The translations under genes were made by a program, and so were the position numbers. From Promethearchaeota archaeon (GTDB lineage: Archaea; Asgardarchaeota; Lokiarchaeia; Sigyniarchaeales; SOKP01): DNA of 64,000 nt. Location: the NCBI GenBank assembly GCA_019057865.1, contig JAHLWP010000007.1, positions 32,001-96,000 of the forward strand. Reading direction: 5' to 3'. The notes under the pieces are model-generated. The model did not search any database. It was not told where the DNA came from and was given only the letters and a program-made list of their open reading frames with translations. This document shows, piece by piece, positions 3,472 to 10,162 of this stretch; position 1 is the first letter of the stretch; each line of letters starts with the position of its first letter.

Positions 3472-4908
3472 ATGTCTTTTGTAAGAAAAAATGATACTGA
3501 TAAAAAAACGTCTTTCGGAGTAATAGTTGGAAATAGAGATGTCTTTCCTGATCATTTAGTAAAGGAAGGTAGAAAAGATATTATAGACGTAATGAACGAA
3601 TTAGAATATAAATTTGTTATTCTAGATGAAGAAGATACTCCTCTAGGAGCGGTTGAGACATATTCAGATGCGAAGAAATGTGCAGAACTTTTTAAAAAGA
3701 ATTCTGATAAAATTTTAGGTATAATTTTATGTCTTTGTAATTTTGGAGATGAGAAAGCCGTAGCCAACACTATAAAATTATCAGAACTTGATGTTCCAAT
3801 CCTAATACAAGCATCATCAGATGATATAAACAAAATGGATAGGTCCTCTAGAAGAGATGCTTTCTGCGGAAAGATTTCAGTAACGAGTGTGTTATATCAA
3901 TATGGAATTCCTTTCACTCTTACTTCAAATCATACATGTGTAATTAAATCTGATGAATTTAAGAAGGATTTAATACGATTTGAGAAAATTTGTAAAGTTG
4001 TTAGGAAAATTAGAAGGGCTAGGTTCGGACAGATCGGTACTCGACCTAATGCATTTGAAACCGTGAGATATAGTGAAAAAATTCTTGCATTTAATGGAAT
4101 TTCTATCGAACTTATCGATTTATCTGAAATTTTAGCAGCAATTCAAAAATTAAAAGATGATGATCCTAAAGTTAAAGATAAAATTGAATTCATTAAAAAT
4201 TATACTCCCACTAAAGAATTCCCTAAGGATGGGTTATTAAAATTAGCTAAATTGGCTGTGATCGTTGAAACTTGGGTTCTTGAACTTGACTTAGATGGAT
4301 TCGCCTTTCAGTGTTGGCCTTCTATAGTTTCTAATTTCGGCATCGTCCCATGCGCGGTCATGAGCATGTTTAGTGAAGGGTTGGTACCTGCTGCTTGTGA
4401 AGTTGATATCTCAGGATTAATTGGCATGTATATTCTTCAAGTAGCTACTAATACCCCTTCTGCGATTGTCGACTGGAATAACAATTACGGAGATGATCCT
4501 AATAAAATGGTATTATTTCACTGTAGTAATTTACCCAAATCGTTCTTTCAAGATACCAAAATGACGGTCCATCCTATTATGGCAGAATACGATGGCGAAG
4601 AAAATACATTTGGCGCGATACAAGGAAAGATTAAGACGAAACCTTGTACAATGCTCAGAATAGAAACCGATGATATTTTTGGAGAAATAAAAGCAATAGT
4701 TGTAGAAGGAAAATTTACTGATGATCCTCTTGATACATATGGAGGATATGGTGTCATTGAGATTCCAAATTTACAAGAATTACTAAAGAAATTATGTCGT
4801 AGTGGATTTGCTCATCATGTAGCCGTTTCCCTAAATGAAGTTGGAGATATTGTTTATGAAGCTCTATTTACTTATCTCGGATGGGATATAGATTTCTTTA
4901 ATAAATAA
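3472..4908 (+). CDS. L-fucose/L-arabinose isomerase family protein
   Basis: NFGDEK, RRDAFCGKISV, QCWP, AACEVD, FHCS and GFAHH motifs of the FucI/AraA-like family. Confidence 0.85.
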   Translation: MSFVRKNDTDKKTSFGVIVGNRDVFPDHLVKEGRKDIIDVMNELEYKFVILDEEDTPLGAVETYSDAKKCAELFKKNSDKILGIILCLCNFGDEKAVANTIKLSELDVPILIQASSDDINKMDRSSRRDAFCGKISVTSVLYQYGIPFTLTSNHTCVIKSDEFKKDLIRFEKICKVVRKIRRARFGQIGTRPNAFETVRYSEKILAFNGISIELIDLSEILAAIQKLKDDDPKVKDKIEFIKNYTPTKEFPKDGLLKLAKLAVIVETWVLELDLDGFAFQCWPSIVSNFGIVPCAVMSMFSEGLVPAACEVDISGLIGMYILQVATNTPSAIVDWNNNYGDDPNKMVLFHCSNLPKSFFQDTKMTVHPIMAEYDGEENTFGAIQGKIKTKPCTMLRIETDDIFGEIKAIVVEGKFTDDPLDTYGGYGVIEIPNLQELLKKLCRSGFAHHVAVSLNEVGDIVYEALFTYLGWDIDFFNK

Positions 4909-4957
4909 ACCATTTTCATCTTCATTTTTCTAATTAAATAATGCAAGCTTGAATCTA

Positions 4958-7582
4958 TTAATCAGGATATATATTTTCTTTTAAATAATATCTAAAATAC
5001 CAATACCAAAATTCAGGCTTTTTACAGTTTGAATTTTTTTGCCTAAATAAATCCATATCTCTTAAAAGTAGCTTATAATGATAATTATAAAAATTCGGAT
5101 AAAAATTTTTATAGAACTCTTTATCTGATAAGATTTTACGTGCTTTCCATCTTTTAATCCACTCTTCGATTAATTTTTCAGGAAACTTATTCCATATCTT
5201 AATCTCTTGGCCATCAATCAATATAGTCTCCTTTTTAAATTCCGATTTAATTATATGATCATAATTTTTACGAATATTGTTAATATTTAGTATTCTATAA
5301 AGATGTTTCATTCGAGCATTCAACAACACTTTATTCTTGTTAAATTCCTCTTTATATGCATGAATCTTCCAATGAGATTTTGAAGCAAGAAGTATTATTT
5401 TAAATGTGAAATCCGAAGAATTGTAATCAAAGATTAAATAATATTTCTGATCTTCATCCAGATGATGGCGTGTTATATAAAGCACATATCGCCCCTTTAT
5501 AATTTGACCATCCTTAGTGACAAAAGGATGTGCATCCTCTATAAAATCTTTATCATAAACATCCAATCCTAAACTTAGATCTAATAGTTCTTTGCGCTGA
5601 ATACCTCTTAAATCAATAAAGTGTTTTTCATACACCCTCCAATGTGGATTATTGATATGTGTCTTAATCCTATATATAGCATTATGACATGCTCCAGGAG
5701 CTTTAAAGAATCCTTTTCTAATTTCTTTAATTAATCTTGTACCCTCAGTTTTAGCTAAAATATATCCATTTCTAAACTTGCCAGTAAGAAAATCTCGAGA
5801 ATTTGTTTTAGAAATCAATCTACTTAAATCTGTATAATCATAAACAAAATCACTATTCTTATTACTTCTTCCTCTTTCTATCTTAGTTAACGCTAATAAT
5901 GAATGGATTACAATATCAAACAATTCTCTATTATCAGTATTGACTATTCGCCTTGAATATTTCGACTCACATAATTCTTTTATCATATTCCTATTTTTCA
6001 TTTCCTTAAAAATAAGATTACGACATTCCGCTTTAAGATCGCTAATATTCACGCCATCTTTAAAATCAAATCTCTCCTTATTAATCAAATGTATACTAGT
6101 AAGCAAATTGAAATATTTTGCATAATGTTCAGGACCTCCTTCACCCCTTTCCCCTCTTCTATATTCTAAATCAAAAATATATGCACGGCTTTTTCCCAAT
6201 ATTTGTGAGAGCCAAGATTTTCCTCCTCCTCCTTTAATATACTTGTTAAAAACAGAGACTAAAATATTCAGAAAATCTTTATTGTACTTCTTTTCGTGGT
6301 AATCAGTTAAGACTCCCGAAAAAGAATTATAAATCTCAGGATGATTTGAGAAAATTTCTATGTGCTCACATATTTTTTTAAAAGTTGTTGGACGAACATT
6401 CATATCAAGAGGTTTATTCCTTGGTAATTCAAGTTGATACGACCATCTTTTTGCTGTATCTAAACTGATACCCAGAATCTTAGAAATATCAGTTGCGACA
6501 ATACGGTTTTTAAAACGGCGTAGACTTGTTCCTCCTGTGATATTAAGGTTAAGTTTATTTGTTGTGGTTTTCTCAAACTCCACAAGTTCAATCTCACACT
6601 CATAAATTAAATTTATTAAGCTCTTTATCAACTTAGTATCAAGATTATCATTTTTATTATAATTATATATCTTTTTTTTATTGCCGTTATATTTGTCTTT
6701 ATACAAAACTCTTATATCTTCACTTCTTTTTTCTTGTCTTTTAATATCAGATTTAGTAAATTTCATCGTTAATCCCTCAGTATAAAATTCATGATAAGAA
6801 GAAAACCGATCAAATGCAGTTATTTTAGCCTTCTTAATTTCTTTGCTTTCAGGATTCAATCCAAGAAGGCAACGGCATGTTCCAACATTTAGGATTTGAT
6901 CATAATTACTCTTGATTTCTTTTAAAGTCATTTCATACTTATTTTCTGGCGAATTTATGATCTCATTATGTTTTAATATATAGTTTTGCCAATCTCTCAA
7001 ATAATTCTGGAGGCTTTTAGATAGTGCTCGAAGATTTTGATGATCAGTGAGGACTTCAGAATGAGTTCTTAAATGCTTAAGTATCCTCGTATACTGGATT
7101 GTAATTTCATCCATTCCATTTTTAATTACCTTATTCACGAGATTTGGTTTGGAAGTTCCTCCTTTTTTAATTGCTTTAATCTGTTTCTTGGTCAATTGTT
7201 TAAGATACGTATTTGAAATCACATCCATATAACGTGAAACTATGGGCGCTCCCCTTCCCACTGTGATGCAATATACCCATCCTTCTATAAACAAGCTAAT
7301 TTCATCGGGGAATTTTGATTTTACTCCTTCGAGTAATGCACTTGGTGGGAGTCCTGCTTTATCAAACAAGCAAGCTAAGGCAGCATCAACAAAATCACCA
7401 ATCCTTTCATCAACATAGACTAAAGGAATGTGATGTATCTTACATTTTGGATATTTGTCAAAACCTAAGAACCTAAATTTAAGTGGCTTAACTCGTGTCA
7501 TATGTTCGCATCCAAAATTTGGGCAAATTGCTACTCGATCCTCTCCCACGGTTTTCCGTGATACGTTTGTGTATGCCTTCAT
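4958..7582 (-). CDS. Multidomain protein: N-terminal Cys/His Zn-binding domain, repeated HTH-like segments, C-terminal HNH-like nuclease motif
   Basis: CPNFGC..CKIH at the N-terminus; HTH-like ATDISKILGISLDTAKRW and KSWLSQILGKSRAYIFDLE; RHHLDED...IILLASKSHWKIH at about 5470-5360. Confidence 0.65.
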   Translation of the reverse strand: MKAYTNVSRKTVGEDRVAICPNFGCEHMTRVKPLKFRFLGFDKYPKCKIHHIPLVYVDERIGDFVDAALACLFDKAGLPPSALLEGVKSKFPDEISLFIEGWVYCITVGRGAPIVSRYMDVISNTYLKQLTKKQIKAIKKGGTSKPNLVNKVIKNGMDEITIQYTRILKHLRTHSEVLTDHQNLRALSKSLQNYLRDWQNYILKHNEIINSPENKYEMTLKEIKSNYDQILNVGTCRCLLGLNPESKEIKKAKITAFDRFSSYHEFYTEGLTMKFTKSDIKRQEKRSEDIRVLYKDKYNGNKKKIYNYNKNDNLDTKLIKSLINLIYECEIELVEFEKTTTNKLNLNITGGTSLRRFKNRIVATDISKILGISLDTAKRWSYQLELPRNKPLDMNVRPTTFKKICEHIEIFSNHPEIYNSFSGVLTDYHEKKYNKDFLNILVSVFNKYIKGGGGKSWLSQILGKSRAYIFDLEYRRGERGEGGPEHYAKYFNLLTSIHLINKERFDFKDGVNISDLKAECRNLIFKEMKNRNMIKELCESKYSRRIVNTDNRELFDIVIHSLLALTKIERGRSNKNSDFVYDYTDLSRLISKTNSRDFLTGKFRNGYILAKTEGTRLIKEIRKGFFKAPGACHNAIYRIKTHINNPHWRVYEKHFIDLRGIQRKELLDLSLGLDVYDKDFIEDAHPFVTKDGQIIKGRYVLYITRHHLDEDQKYYLIFDYNSSDFTFKIILLASKSHWKIHAYKEEFNKNKVLLNARMKHLYRILNINNIRKNYDHIIKSEFKKETILIDGQEIKIWNKFPEKLIEEWIKRWKARKILSDKEFYKNFYPNFYNYHYKLLLRDMDLFRQKNSNCKKPEFWYWYFRYYLKENIYPD

Positions 7583-7586
7583 GAAG

Positions 7587-8192
7587 TTAATCTATCCTCA
7601 AGTTGTTTTTTGATATTTTAATCTTCACTCTTGGTGTGTTTTCTAATAATCTCTCTAATTCCCTTTCTAAACTACTGTAGTTTATTTCAAGTTCCTTATA
7701 AAATTCACTGAATTGTGCGTTCAAGCACTTCTTCACTAAAAATATGTTTTGTGCTAATTTAACTATAAATTTGAGAAATTTTGAATGACGATGAAGGCTT
7801 TCTTCTGAAAAATAATGAAGTAACATGGATAGTTTCTCAGCTATTTCTGAGAGTCTATTCAAGGGAGTTCTACAATTGTTATAAAAGAGAGATTGAATTC
7901 CTTGTTCAAGTGATTGTCCGTTTTTCTTGATTTTACTTAACAAAGTCATGAATTCACGAGTTAATGATTCAATTTCTTGTTTTTGGGTATAAAATGTAGT
8001 GTTTATATCTTTTTCGGCAAAACTTAGAGTGGTTCCAAATCGGTATCTTATTACTTCATTCTTGTAATTGAAAAATGTTCGGAGTTGTCGTGAAAGTTCT
8101 TTTATTTTTCTTACTCCCTCAATCTCATACCAATTATTAAAAATATCATCATATTCTAATTCAATATAATATTCTTCATTATTATCCGTCAT
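7587..8192 (-). CDS. Hypothetical all-helical protein, cotranscribed with the 874-aa gene
   Basis: 201-aa ORF ending 4 nt before the next start; a GAGGA site in its 3' end precedes the downstream ATG. Confidence 0.75.
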   Translation of the reverse strand: MTDNNEEYYIELEYDDIFNNWYEIEGVRKIKELSRQLRTFFNYKNEVIRYRFGTTLSFAEKDINTTFYTQKQEIESLTREFMTLLSKIKKNGQSLEQGIQSLFYNNCRTPLNRLSEIAEKLSMLLHYFSEESLHRHSKFLKFIVKLAQNIFLVKKCLNAQFSEFYKELEINYSSLERELERLLENTPRVKIKISKNNLRID

Positions 8193-8323
8193 AATTTACT
8201 ATTTTAAACCTTTTACTAACTAATTAAAACATTTATATTTAAACAAAAAATGTTATTTCTAATAATTACAATTTAGAAAAAATACGATAAAATGTCTTAT
8301 ATCCCGCATAAAATATCATTTTC

Positions 8324-8908
8324 TCTAGTTTTGGGATAGTTCCATGTGCATTTCTAAGCATGTTTAGTGAAGGACTTGTTCCAGCGGCATGTGAAGTAGA
8401 TATTGCAGGATTAATTGGTATGTATATTTTACAGATTGCCACAAATACACCATCAGCAATATTGGATTGGAATAATAATTATGGGGATGATCCTAATAAA
8501 ATGGTATTGTTTCATTGCAGTAATCTCCCTAAATCATTCTTTAAAGATACTAAAATTACAATCCACCCAATTATTTCAGACCTCAAGGGTGGTGAAGTCA
8601 GCTATGGTGCTATACAAGGAAGAATAAAATCTGAACTTGTTACACTTTTAAGAATTGAAACTGATGATTTTATGGGTGAAATGAAGGCTATTATTGCAGA
8701 GGGGGAATACACCGATGATGCACTTGATACATTCGGAGGTTATGGTGTGGTTAAAATCCCTAATTTGCAATATTTATTAAAGAAATTGTGTTATGGGGGA
8801 TTTGCCCATCATGTTGCTGCTACACTGAATGAAGTAGGAATAATTGTTTATGAGGCTCTGTCTAGCTATCTTGGCTGGAATGTAGAATTTCACAATAAAG
8901 ATCAATAA
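8324..8908 (+). pseudogene. 5'-truncated copy of the fucose/arabinose isomerase-like gene (C-terminal ~194 codons)
   Basis: SSFGIVPCAFLSMFSEGLVPAACEVD... aligns with residue 287 onward of 3472..4908. In-frame TAA at 8309 upstream and no internal stops. Could be translated from ATG 8360. Confidence 0.8.
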
Positions 8909-8911
8909 ATT

Positions 8912-10018
8912 CTATTTTTTTCTTCCTATTATTATTTCTTTTTCAAAAAAACCAGAATTAATTACTTTTTTATGCTCTTCAGTGAAATTTGTCAATATAT
9001 CAAAAGGTTTTATCTTTAAGGGTGTATAAATACTTTCATTATGGAAATTAAGAATTCTCCTTCTTGATAAATAAATAGAATATGCAGAAATATCGCAACC
9101 TATCCATTTTCGATTTAACTTATCAGCAACTAATAATGTAGTTCCAGAACCACAAAAAAAGTCTGCAATCAAGTTTTCTTCATTAGAACCTAATTTAATT
9201 ATTTTTTCTAGTAATTTATGGTGTTTCTGAGTCGGAAAACCACTCCATTCTTTTGAGGCAGGTTGCATACAAGGAATTCTCCACACATCATCCATTTTTT
9301 TATCGGTTACAATTCGATATTTTACATGTCCATTTTTATTTTTAACATTTTTCAAAACTCCGTTTATCATTTCTCTCATTAATTGTTTTTCTGGTTTTTT
9401 GCGAGGAATTCTTAGCTCATTAAACGTATATTTATTAGATTTGGAATATACTAATATATCATCGTGTGCACGAGGGAGGTTTCTTTTCCCTGCTGAATAT
9501 TTATTATAATAATACCAAATAATATTATTTATAAACCTCTCTTCTCCAAAAATTTCATCTAAGATTAATCTAACATAATGACTTGCATGCCAATCTAAAT
9601 GAATGAATAGTATACCCGTTTGAGATAATAATTCTTTAAAAAGAATTATCCTCTCATAAAGCATTTGCAAATATGAATCTAAATTCTTCTCCCAATGATC
9701 GAGGTATGCGATAGTATTATAAACATTATCATTATCTTTAATTTTAATCTGATAATTAGTGCCTGAAAAGAAAGGAGGATCTATATAGATCAAATCTACT
9801 TTACCTTTGAAGTTATTTAATAAATGATATAAAACTTCTATATTATTCCCCCAAAATAATTTGTTTCTCCATTCTTTCTTATGTAAATTATTTTGGATTT
9901 TTTTTTTATTAACTTCAGGGTGAACTTCAAAAATTTTATAATAATTCAGAAATTTATTTTTTAAATCTTTTAAATTGACTGGTTTTTCCGATTTTTCCTC
10001 CCAAATTAATTTTACCAT
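8912..10018 (-). CDS. Orphan site-specific DNA methyltransferase (N4/N6, beta class)
   Basis: LIYIDPPF (motif IV) precedes FPTQK and ADFFCGSGTT (motif I). No adjacent restriction gene. Confidence 0.9.
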   Translation of the reverse strand: MVKLIWEEKSEKPVNLKDLKNKFLNYYKIFEVHPEVNKKKIQNNLHKKEWRNKLFWGNNIEVLYHLLNNFKGKVDLIYIDPPFFSGTNYQIKIKDNDNVYNTIAYLDHWEKNLDSYLQMLYERIILFKELLSQTGILFIHLDWHASHYVRLILDEIFGEERFINNIIWYYYNKYSAGKRNLPRAHDDILVYSKSNKYTFNELRIPRKKPEKQLMREMINGVLKNVKNKNGHVKYRIVTDKKMDDVWRIPCMQPASKEWSGFPTQKHHKLLEKIIKLGSNEENLIADFFCGSGTTLLVADKLNRKWIGCDISAYSIYLSRRRILNFHNESIYTPLKIKPFDILTNFTEEHKKVINSGFFEKEIIIGRKK

Positions 10019-10162
10019 TCCTTTATCGAACTATATTTATATTTAGAATTTATATTTAAATTATATTTCAAATAAATCAGTTATTATAAAGTCTATATTA
10101 AATTTTTTATGATGTTGTTTCTGATTTATTAAAATTAGAAAAAAACAAATTTAAAAGTAAAA

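What the first reader, a model, noticed from the sequence alone, without database searches (positions are those of the whole stretch)
3472..8908. Candidate gene-replacing homing element: an HNH cassette that brings a new 3' part of its target gene
Seen: an intact isomerase gene, then two opposite-strand genes, then a stop-free but 5'-less copy of the same gene starting abruptly at about 8324 (equivalent to codon 287, about 4330). The two 3' parts are similar in protein but heavily recoded at synonymous sites. Just after the breakpoint the intact gene uses C/G-ending codons (ttc ggc atc gtc cca tgc gcg gtc), while the orphan copy mostly uses A/T-ending codons like the host (ttt ggg ata gtt cca tgt gca ttt). 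No integrase or transposase is in the cassette. Known: some fungal mitochondrial homing endonuclease genes insert inside a gene and carry a foreign replacement 3' end that displaces the native one. Inference: an intron-less, intein-less homing element that restores its target with a cleavage-resistant allele. I do not know of this being described in Asgard archaea.
Basis: partly seen in the sequence, partly recalled or inferred. Interest (0 to 1): 0.8.

Follow-up and report, generated by a model that had tools for sequence, protein, structure and literature searches.

The report
Gene-end-replacing nuclease cassette in Lokiarchaeon
A two-gene nuclease cassette has entered a sugar-isomerase gene of a Lokiarchaeon (Asgard archaeon), bringing its own copy of the gene's last 190 codons and leaving the original end stranded; it belongs to a large family of such elements for which I found no description.

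Summary
The isomerase gene (3472-4908) is intact. A 201-aa plus 874-aa gene pair lies on the opposite strand (4958-8192). A stop-free orphan copy of isomerase codons 289-478 follows at 8324-8908.

The orphan is the native gene end. It sits 3 nt from the convergent DNA methylase gene, where at least 12 same-genus genomes have an uninterrupted isomerase end with no cassette.

The attached 3' part travels with the cassette:
- Cassette-linked alleles from four genomes plus one footprint allele form one clan (support 96/96).
- The 5' part follows a different tree, and AU tests reject concordance.
- All cassette-linked alleles carry QD->VS/VL at the break; all 15 empty alleles keep QD.

Genome G012 has no cassette but keeps 443 nt of the element-borne segment (1 mismatch) fused to a native end. 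Independent metagenome contigs bridge every junction.

The large protein has a conserved N-domain, predicted to bind the small protein, and a swappable C-terminal part. Here that part is an HTH plus a weakly HNH-like fold. The C-part type tracks the chromosomal site across 52 loci.

Nuclease activity and homing are inferred, not shown. GC3 "foreignness" is only local. First readers of this scan noted sister cassettes on other DNA.

The parts
3472..4329 (+). Isomerase 5' part (codons 1-286), host-lineage sequence. The last ~60 nt (from ~4271) may already belong to a co-converted tract.
   Evidence: Pfam Fucose_iso_C on the whole gene. The 5'-part tree groups G000 with G012, G005 and G010 at 100%. 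Mismatches to G012 cluster at 4271-4311, where G012 resembles the empty alleles and the window does not.
4330..4908 (+). Attached 3' part of the isomerase gene (codons 287-478), brought in with the cassette. It carries the diagnostic VS (GTT TCT) at the break.
   Evidence: It clusters with the 3' parts of other cassette-bearing genomes, not with the host's relatives. Positions 4312-4754 are identical to G012 apart from 1 mismatch, while the flanks differ by 3-12%. QD->VS is fixed in cassette-linked alleles.
4958..7582 (-). 874-aa protein. Residues 1-285 (6728-7582) form a conserved Zn-ribbon plus helical N-domain. Residues 291-874 (4958-6712) form a site-specific C-terminal module, with an HTH-like segment near residues 366-388 (6419-6487) and an HNH-like fold at about residues 655-770 (5273-5620).
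   Evidence: The N-domain is 58-88% identical in about 195 proteins whose C-parts vary. AF2 model pLDDT 87 with no fold match. The C-module also occurs alone and fused to a group II intron reverse transcriptase. The C-domain model has pLDDT 92, and the top VIA matches are nearly all HNH nucleases at Z<=5.5.
7587..8192 (-). 201-aa helical partner protein, always directly upstream of the large gene.
   Evidence: Present at the loci where the upstream region is held, usually overlapping the large ORF by ATGA. Predicted to bind the N-domain: ipSAE 0.82, best of 3 controls 0.02. No family match.
8193..8262 (-). Conserved cassette promoter region with a TATA-like box (reverse complement of 8230-8244, GTTTAAATATAAATG), about 50 nt before the small gene's ATG.
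   Evidence: Aligned across 19 cassettes with different targets. Conservation ends about 70 nt upstream of the ATG.
8263..8323 (.). Non-conserved spacer ending at the non-homologous junction with the orphan. No repeat is shared with the left junction.
   Evidence: There is no identical core longer than 4-5 nt between 4325-4335 and 8319-8329.
8324..8908 (+). Orphan: the host's original isomerase 3' end (codons ~289-478 plus 2), stop-free and without a 5' part.
   Evidence: Its stop lies 3 nt from the methylase stop at 8912, as in empty-site relatives. It groups with the empty alleles. The native tail of G012 is 86-87% identical to it, against 76-83% to the attached copy.

Best explanation
The region holds a free-standing, homing-type mobile cassette. 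The cassette consists of a promoter, a 201-aa gene and an 874-aa gene. It lives beside its target, the isomerase gene, and moves together with the adjacent piece of that gene.

The proposed mechanism has four steps:
1. The C-terminal module of the 874-aa protein (HTH plus an HNH-like domain) recognises and cuts cassette-less isomerase alleles at the conserved sequence around codons 287-290 (...TGG CCN WSN ATH CAR GAY AAY TTT GGN...).
2. The break is repaired from a cassette-bearing chromosome. This copies the donor's 3' gene segment and the cassette.
3. The donor allele escapes cutting because it reads VS (GTT TCY) instead of QD, together with nearby silent changes.
4. In the window's lineage the far side of the repair was joined without homology at the break. 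The recipient's own 3' end was therefore kept as an orphan beginning at the break.

Later recombination between the two 3' copies can delete the cassette and leave a hybrid gene, as seen in G012.

The conserved N-domain and the small protein form a complex whose role is unknown.

Shown: the insertion, which 3' copy came with the cassette, empty and footprint alleles, that the family is site-specific, and the predicted N-domain/small-protein complex.

Inferred: nuclease activity, the cut site, immunity through QD->VS, and repair-driven spread.
For: - Position: the orphan abuts the methylase gene exactly as the native gene end does in at least 12 same-genus genomes without a cassette.
- Phylogeny: cassette-linked 3' parts from G000, E44_bin85, CSMAG_616, co196_315 and the G012 footprint form one clan (96/96). 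The 5' parts follow another tree. AU tests give p=1e-60, 0.004 and 0.003.
- Fixed difference at the break: QD in 15 of 15 empty alleles, VS or VL in 5 of 5 cassette-linked alleles.
- Footprint: G012 has no cassette, yet matches window 4312-4754 with 1 mismatch in 443 nt and then switches to orphan-like sequence.
- Same element, same site: L010, L011 and L042 carry the orthologous cassette between the isomerase and methylase genes, with the orphan at different stages of decay.
- Family: 52 loci in Promethearchaeota genomes, three more in this genome. A similar C-terminal part goes with the same flanking genes, while N- and C-part identities are uncoupled.
- Diverged direct repeats of the neighbouring gene flank about 15 cassettes, on either side of the cassette.
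- C-parts of relatives carry homing-endonuclease-type domains: HNH_3, LAGLIDADG_3 and PDDEXK_5 precomputed, and a PHROG HNH match at E=5e-12 in the paralog on contig C60.
- The window's C-module also replaces the endonuclease position of a group II intron reverse transcriptase. Its predicted fold matches HNH nucleases best.
- No conserved ends, inverted repeats or att-like core were found.
- Independent contigs bridge all junctions.
Against: - No cleavage or mobility has been observed.
- For this copy the HNH assignment rests on low structural scores (Z<=5.5, Foldseek E>=0.6). There is no sequence-profile match, and the RHH...H motif is not invariant among homologs.
- A simple homing endonuclease does not need a conserved 285-aa domain plus a partner protein. 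Their role is unexplained and could be the real mobility machinery.
- Classical homing makes no duplication. The orphan needs an extra, non-homologous joining step, which I infer only.
- Part of the 'same C-part, same site' pattern could be vertical inheritance.
- The tree groups were partly chosen after seeing the tree.
- G012 also has an orphan 5' isomerase fragment with no cassette of this family nearby. Gene-end replacement here is therefore not always tied to this cassette.
Confidence: 0.7

Rival explanations
1. The cassette is an integrative or transposon-like element. The conserved N-domain/small-protein complex would be a new recombinase or insertion machinery, and the variable C-terminal part would only aim it at a site. 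The element would carry the gene fragment at one end, as phages 21 and e14 carry the end of icd (from my own knowledge).
For: The conserved core (promoter, small gene, N-domain) is shared by elements with different targets, while the C-part changes with the site. The two conserved proteins are predicted to form a complex. The orphan starts abruptly, as at an insertion point. In the ADH copy on contig C60 both junctions look non-homologous.
Against: The N-domain model is a Zn-ribbon plus helical bundle with no resemblance to any recombinase, transposase or nuclease fold (best Z 5.6, generic helical hits). There are no terminal repeats, no conserved ends beyond the promoter and no shared core at the two junctions. 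The duplicated gene piece lies on either side of the cassette at different loci. The left junction in the window is seamless, with a variable co-conversion edge (~4271 in G000, ~4312 in G012), as expected from homologous repair.
Confidence: 0.13
2. The gene pair is a polymorphic nuclease, conflict or defence module: a conserved 'chassis' with swappable toxic C-termini and a partner. It would be mostly inherited vertically or moved by ordinary recombination. The isomerase duplication would be a by-product of one illegitimate recombination.
For: The architecture (conserved N-part, variable nuclease-like C-part, small coupled partner) recalls polymorphic toxin and defence systems. Several copies occur per genome.
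Against: There is no PADLOC match. The C-parts include LAGLIDADG and site-tracking modules. About 15 independent loci show neighbour-gene duplications. The attached gene segment is transferred horizontally with the cassette, and a fixed change sits at the break. In acr3 the cassette is linked 5 of 5 against 0 of 27 to a precise 31-nt insert at the break.
Confidence: 0.1
3. There was no mobile event: a local tandem duplication of the isomerase gene was followed by loss of the second copy's 5' half and chance insertion of two genes. Alternatively, the arrangement is an assembly artefact.
For: The arrangement alone (gene, insert, partial copy) would allow it.
Against: The two 3' copies are not each other's closest relatives (AU p=0.003). 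No relative has two copies. The same cassette sits at the same site in three other genomes. Contigs from three other studies bridge all junctions.
Confidence: 0.02

Closest known systems
Fungal mitochondrial mobile ORFs that create 'gene hybrids' (Allomyces macrogynus atp6; Glomus atp6, atp9, cox2, nad3; PMC3630166)
   Same: An endonuclease ORF enters a conserved gene together with a foreign C-terminal gene segment that replaces the native one. The native C-terminus remains downstream as an orphan. The native orphan clusters with the host's relatives and the inserted segment does not.
   Different: Those elements are single LAGLIDADG or GIY-YIG ORFs, often in frame with the host gene, in organelle genomes. 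Here the element lies in an archaeal chromosome on the opposite strand. It has its own promoter and two genes: an 874-aa modular protein with a conserved N-domain of no known fold, and a partner protein. It belongs to a multi-copy family with swappable C-parts.
Intronless homing by free-standing homing endonucleases of T4-like phages (seg and mob genes, e.g. mobE; PMC2988022, PMC2790892)
   Same: The endonuclease gene sits between genes, cuts a neighbouring conserved gene in genomes that lack it, and is co-converted with flanking DNA. The donor is protected by sequence differences at the site.
   Different: Phage cases normally leave no duplicated orphan and involve small single proteins. None is known to me in archaeal chromosomes. 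Cleavage is demonstrated there and not here.
Collaborative homing of an ORF-less intron and an adjacent free-standing endonuclease (cyanophage psbA; from my own knowledge; related family paper PMC6083498)
   Same: In sister cassettes of this family (acr3, ADH) a short insert sits exactly at the break or target site of the neighbouring gene and is linked to the cassette.
   Different: The inserts are 29-31 nt and look like archaeal bulge-helix-bulge introns, not group I introns. The window's isomerase copy has no insert and uses substitutions instead. Splicing has not been shown.
Phage 21 / e14 integration into icd, with a replacement 3' end (from my own knowledge)
   Same: The element carries an alternative 3' end of the target gene, so the gene stays intact after insertion.
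   Different: Those elements use a tyrosine integrase and an identical att core. Neither is present here.

Membership tests
Homing endonuclease gene (free-standing, intronless homing) | Encodes a site-specific DNA endonuclease of a recognised family | tested here: inconclusive
   No Pfam or PHROG nuclease hit for this protein. The predicted C-domain (pLDDT 92) matches HNH nucleases best, but weakly: Z 5.5 rmsd 4.4 over 89 residues for McrA, and Z 5.3 rmsd 2.8 over 89 residues for Cap5. Paralogs and relatives have clear HNH, LAGLIDADG and PD-(D/E)xK matches.
Homing endonuclease gene (free-standing, intronless homing) | Presence/absence polymorphism at one conserved site, with empty alleles in relatives | tested here: met
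   The cassette is at the same site in G000, L010, L011 and L042. At least 12 same-genus genomes have empty sites.
Homing endonuclease gene (free-standing, intronless homing) | Co-conversion: flanking target sequence is inherited with the element, discordantly with the host tree | tested here: met
   (clan support 96/96; AU p=1e-60 and 0.004). The G012 tract is identical apart from 1 mismatch in 443 nt.
Homing endonuclease gene (free-standing, intronless homing) | The element-bearing allele differs from empty alleles at the presumed recognition site (immunity) | tested here: met
   QD (15 of 15 empty) against VS or VL (5 of 5 linked), exactly at the orphan break. That this blocks cutting has not been tested.
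Homing endonuclease gene (free-standing, intronless homing) | Cleavage of the empty allele and biased gene conversion | not testable with these tools
   This needs biochemistry or genetics.
HNH (beta-beta-alpha-Me) nuclease superfamily | Sequence-profile match and catalytic His...Asn...His with metal ligands | tested here: inconclusive
   The motif RHH(x~30)SKSHWKIH is present in the window's protein but not invariant in 30 homologs. There is no Pfam match in any of them and no PDB profile match. Only a weak fold match.
Site-specific integrative element (tyrosine or serine recombinase) | Integrase gene and identical att core at both junctions | tested here: not met
   No recombinase family in the cassette. 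No shared core at 4330 and 8324.
DNA transposon / insertion sequence | Transposase fold, terminal inverted repeats, target-site duplication | tested here: not met
   No conserved termini beyond the promoter. The flanking 'repeats' are 45-83% identical gene fragments of 45-580 bp, not short target-site duplications. The N-domain shows no transposase-like fold, although this fold search is itself inconclusive.
Aloposons (Heimdallarchaeum; PMC8813620) | Tandem giant genes (3,000-6,000 aa), integration at tRNA genes, ParA-like gene set | tested here: not met
   Description read. None of these features is present at this locus.

The most novel reading that the evidence does not exclude
Lokiarchaeia would carry a large family, which I found nowhere described, of modular homing cassettes. 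Each has a conserved two-protein core (small protein plus Zn-ribbon/helical N-domain) that can be coupled to many different site-specific nuclease or DNA-binding modules. Each cassette colonises one conserved chromosomal gene. It protects its own allele in one of two ways: by replacing part of the gene, as with the isomerase here, or by a linked 29-31-nt bulge-helix-bulge mini-intron placed exactly at the target site of a protein-coding gene (acr3, ADH). The second route would be an archaeal counterpart of collaborative intron/endonuclease homing, and a source of mRNA introns in the closest prokaryotic relatives of eukaryotes.
Probability: 0.4. Interest if true: 0.92.

Novelty: new variant of a known kind. 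Interest (0 to 1): 0.8.

Why it matters
- Homing endonuclease genes are known in archaea from inteins and rRNA/tRNA-type introns. I found no report of free-standing, gene-end-replacing elements in archaeal chromosomes (literature searches).
- The window gives a very clean natural series: filled allele with orphan, decaying orphans, footprint allele and many empty alleles. This series documents the gain-and-loss cycle of such an element and horizontal transfer of part of a metabolic gene between Lokiarchaeal lineages.
- The family offers dozens of natural, probably very specific DNA-recognition modules on one common scaffold. It also offers a new conserved protein pair of unknown function.
- If the linked mini-inserts are spliced, they would be new cases of introns in archaeal protein-coding genes. 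Until now these are documented only for cbf5 (PMC2738675).
- For genome annotation, orphan gene ends and hybrid genes of this kind can be misread as pseudogenes or paralogs.

Tried and rejected
- Aloposons: I recalled them as a possible match. The paper shows they are giant-gene elements at tRNA genes, so they are unrelated.
- Pfam, PHROGs and PADLOC on the two cassette proteins gave nothing. The ESM Atlas search on the small protein gave no usable hit.
- N-domain fold searches returned only generic helical matches: Foldseek E>=0.3, VIA Z<=5.6. No function can be read from them.
- A profile of the C-domain against PDB sequences gave no hit. Pfam on 30 homologs gave no HNH hit.
- 'Foreign GC3' as proof of foreign origin was rejected as a general argument. 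The rise is local (codons ~271-390) and one empty allele is as high.
- 'Heavy synonymous recoding' as a designed feature was rejected, because dS is saturated between any two lineages.
- Fixed orientation rule (orphan always on the small-gene side): rejected. The HD-gene loci L013 and L016, and L019 and L036, have the orphan on the large-gene side.
- Low-depth metagenome contigs joining 4326->8453 (runs X4, X10) and 4428->8447 (X4) may be empty or hybrid alleles in other populations. Their anchors are only 27-37 nt, so I do not count them.
- Covariation in the acr3 mini-insert: two compensatory pairs, but only four sequences, and 65 of 500 shuffles reach the score. This is suggestive only.
- The paralog cassette on contig C58 (locus L008) shows no flanking duplication.
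Full report
**1. What is in the window**

The ORF list and translations show four features:
- a 478-aa gene at 3472-4908 (+) with a Fucose_iso_C domain;
- an 874-aa ORF at 4958-7582 (-);
- a 201-aa ORF at 7587-8192 (-);
- an in-frame, stop-free copy of isomerase codons ~289-478 at 8324-8908 (+).

The two 3' parts are 75% identical in protein (E about 1e-102). Their DNA homology starts abruptly at 8324, which corresponds to 4330. A DNA methylase gene (N6_N4_Mtase) lies at 8912-10018 (-), 3 nt beyond the orphan's stop.

**2. Which copy is native**

In same-genus genomes the gene order is GT87 glycosyltransferase, isomerase, convergent methylase, two coiled-coil genes. In at least 12 of these genomes the isomerase stop lies 12-20 nt from the methylase stop, with nothing between. 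In the window it is the orphan that holds this position. The orphan is therefore the original gene end, and codons 287-478 of the intact gene arrived with the cassette.

**3. Trees**

I built codon alignments of the 5' part and the 3' part for 17 and 21 alleles.
- The 5' part groups G000 with G012, G005 and G010 (100%).
- In the 3' part, the attached copy groups with G012 and with the alleles of three other cassette-bearing genomes (E44_bin85, CSMAG_616, co196_315). This clan has support 96/96. The orphan falls among the empty alleles.

AU tests give these results:
- the 3' data reject the 5' grouping (p=1e-60);
- the 5' data reject a clade of cassette genomes (p=0.004);
- 'attached plus orphan are sisters', the expectation for a local tandem duplication, is rejected (p=0.003).

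Some of these groups were named after I had seen the tree.

**4. The break**

All 15 empty alleles read WPSI-QD-NFGIVPC. All five cassette-linked alleles read VS (one reads VL) at these two codons, exactly where the orphan begins. This is the best candidate for the change that protects the donor allele.

- dS between any two lineages is already 1-3, so the many silent differences are ordinary divergence.
- GC3 is raised only locally: 0.38 in codons 289-350 against 0.20 in the orphan and a host mean of 0.205. It is 0.07-0.10 at the end of the attached copy.

**5. A footprint allele**

G012 is the closest relative (90% protein identity) and has no cassette. Its gene matches window 4312-4754 with one mismatch in 443 nt, while its flanks differ by 3-12%. 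From about 4755 it switches to orphan-like sequence: 86-87% identity to the orphan against 76-83% to the attached copy. This is what recombination between the two 3' copies would leave after deleting the cassette. Co-conversion without the cassette would give the same result. The left edge of the shared tract differs between G000 (~4271) and G012 (~4312), as expected for homologous repair tracts.

**6. Same element, same site, elsewhere**

L010, L011 and L042 carry the orthologous cassette (C-part 56-88% identical) between the methylase and isomerase genes. Their orphans are at different stages of decay:
- present from 'LVPAACEVD' in L042;
- a 15-aa remnant in L010;
- none in L011.

**7. Not an assembly artefact**

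Near-identical DNA occurs in 20 runs from 13 studies. Contigs from three other studies bridge each junction:
- X7, 3739-4520 and 4501-5840;
- X3, 7537-8470;
- X4, 8089-9094.

**8. The cassette proteins**

*N-terminal domain.* The N-terminal 285 residues are 58-88% identical in about 195 proteins from Promethearchaeota/Lokiarchaeota (and one Helarchaeota) MAGs. Their C-parts differ and carry precomputed HNH_3, LAGLIDADG_3, PDDEXK_5, RNase_T or wHTH domains. The domain folds confidently (pLDDT 87) as a Zn-ribbon plus helical bundle, with no informative structural match.

*Small protein.* It is present at the loci where the upstream region is held, usually overlapping the large gene's start by ATGA. 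It is predicted to bind the N-domain: ipSAE 0.82, best of 3 controls 0.02. The tool's calibration for this mark is 58 of 80 solved complexes and 2 of 110 mismatched pairs. The runs share at least 69% of contacts and partner pLDDT is at least 75. This supports binding but does not show it.

*C-terminal module.* Residues 291-874 are shared by only about 10 proteins of this family. Distant homologs exist as stand-alone ~580-aa proteins and as fusions, including one behind the reverse transcriptase and maturase domains of a group II intron protein. That is the position where such proteins carry their DNA-binding/endonuclease part. Homologs show an HTH.

*HNH-like fold.* The last 235 residues fold with pLDDT 92. 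In an exhaustive structure comparison only 54 chains reach Z>=2, and about 20 of the top 22 are HNH nucleases: McrA Z 5.5, Cap5 5.3, Cas9/IscB HNH 4.2, T4 endonuclease VII 3.3. Sequence profiles find nothing. An HNH-like nuclease is therefore plausible but not established for this copy. The paralog on contig C60 has a clear HNH match (PHROG, E=5e-12).

**9. The family**

The genome has three more cassettes and GTDB representatives hold 52 loci, all in Promethearchaeota-type MAGs apart from two labelled as bacterial bins, with several per genome.
- Cassettes with similar C-parts (above ~55% identity) share flanking genes across genomes. Dissimilar ones do not. N- and C-part identities are uncoupled, which indicates module shuffling.
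- About 15 of roughly 40 testable loci have diverged direct repeats of the neighbouring gene on both sides of the cassette.
- The complete gene can lie on either side of the cassette.
- Only a ~70-nt promoter with a TATA-like box is conserved outside the genes. There are no terminal repeats.

This fits an endonuclease gene that sits next to its target and drags the adjacent gene segment along. It fits an element with defined ends poorly.

**10. Mechanism and its weak points**

The best reading is intronless homing with co-conversion. The orphan would arise when the far end of a repair event was joined without homology at the break. Three points are unexplained or untested:
- why a homing nuclease needs a conserved extra domain and a partner protein;
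- whether the protein cuts, and where;
- whether QD->VS protects the donor allele.

The main rival is that the conserved core is itself a new insertion machinery, which I rate at 0.13. A defence or polymorphic-toxin reading fits the architecture but not the gene-segment transfer or the site tracking.

**11. Comparison with known systems**

The closest known systems are the fungal mitochondrial mobile ORFs that create gene hybrids with an inserted and a native C-terminus (PMC3630166), and phage free-standing endonucleases (PMC2988022, PMC2790892). I found no paper on this Lokiarchaeal family. First readers of this scan had noted sister cassettes in other genomes, and I tested some of those leads here.

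**12. Side finding: short inserts at the break in sister cassettes**

In sister cassettes the neighbouring gene is interrupted exactly at the break by a 29-31-nt insert.

*ADH.* The inserts are 29 nt on contig C60 and 30 nt in L056, lying between CGI and CGSD.

*acr3.* The insert is 31 nt, lying between GTTMGL and FWEVPVML.
- Predicted folds show a 4-bp helix flanked by bulges (3 nt each in the C60 ADH insert). Cutting after the second bulge nucleotide is the rule quoted in PMC2738675. On C60 ADH and on acr3 that cut restores the reading frame. L056 fits only in a relaxed register with one G·A mismatch.
- 27 of 30 acr3 orthologs read GTTMGLFWEVPVML without interruption and have no cassette within 1.5 kb.
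- The five alleles with the insert are all linked to the cassette. In one of them about 7 kb of other genes lie in between.
- Two compensatory base pairs support the fold, but only four sequences were available.

Splicing has not been shown.

Noticed in passing
L007:7296-7345 (own genome contig C60) and L056:13068-13097: A zinc-ADH gene next to a sister cassette is interrupted by a 29-nt (C60) or 30-nt (L056) hairpin insert exactly between TGTGGAATT and TGCGGNTCTGAT (CGI|CGSD). On C60 an orphan ADH 5' fragment (L007:11533-11760) ends at the same point. The fold looks like a bulge-helix-bulge motif; on C60, cuts after the second bulge nucleotide restore the frame, while L056 fits only in a relaxed register with one G·A mismatch.
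   Followed up: partly
L020:12733-12763, L023, L024, L033:4075-4105, L128:2878-2908 (G095): The acr3 arsenite-transporter genes linked to another sister cassette carry a 31-nt insert between GTTMGL and FWEVPVML. 27 of 30 orthologs lack the insert and have no cassette within 1.5 kb, and all five alleles with it are linked to the cassette. Two compensatory base pairs support the fold. This is a candidate mini-intron and collaborative homing; splicing has not been shown.
   Followed up: partly
window 7600-7605: The small gene has an A6 run where L010 and contigs from four independent metagenomes have A7. In the window this shifts the last 9 codons and removes the usual ATGA overlap with the large gene. 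It is either a real variant or a homopolymer error.
   Followed up: partly
L090:3662-6234 (genome G012): An orphan 5' fragment of the isomerase gene (aa 1-94, 63% identical) sits next to the GT87 gene. A 2.3-kb insert follows, containing an ORF that by eye resembles FGE-sulfatase enzymes (no family search run), and then the complete isomerase gene. No cassette of this family is present. G010 and G020 show similar orphan 5' fragments at contig ends. This looks like a second, different gene-end replacement in the same gene.
   Followed up: partly
L091:5088-6635 and 8296-10101 (genome G005); L094 (G022): Other genes (515 aa and 601 aa) lie between the isomerase gene and its usual neighbours in G005. 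In G022 about 1.8 kb lies between the methylase and the isomerase end, and the isomerase gene lacks codons ~125-254. The isomerase locus appears to be an insertion hot spot in this genus.
   Followed up: no
L128:3426-9690 (G095): About 7 kb with six ORFs, one having an HNH-like CxxC...H motif, is inserted between acr3 and its linked cassette. It may be a further mobile or defence island.
   Followed up: no
L079 (G021 contig C230, position 1): A contig of a same-genus genome begins at about isomerase codon 289-291, at the break. This suggests an assembly break at a similar repeat junction, and perhaps another filled allele.
   Followed up: no
L041, L050: Two cassette loci lie on contigs filed under bacterial MAG names (Deferrimicrobium, Nanopelagicaceae). 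These are probably mis-binned Lokiarchaeal contigs.
   Followed up: no
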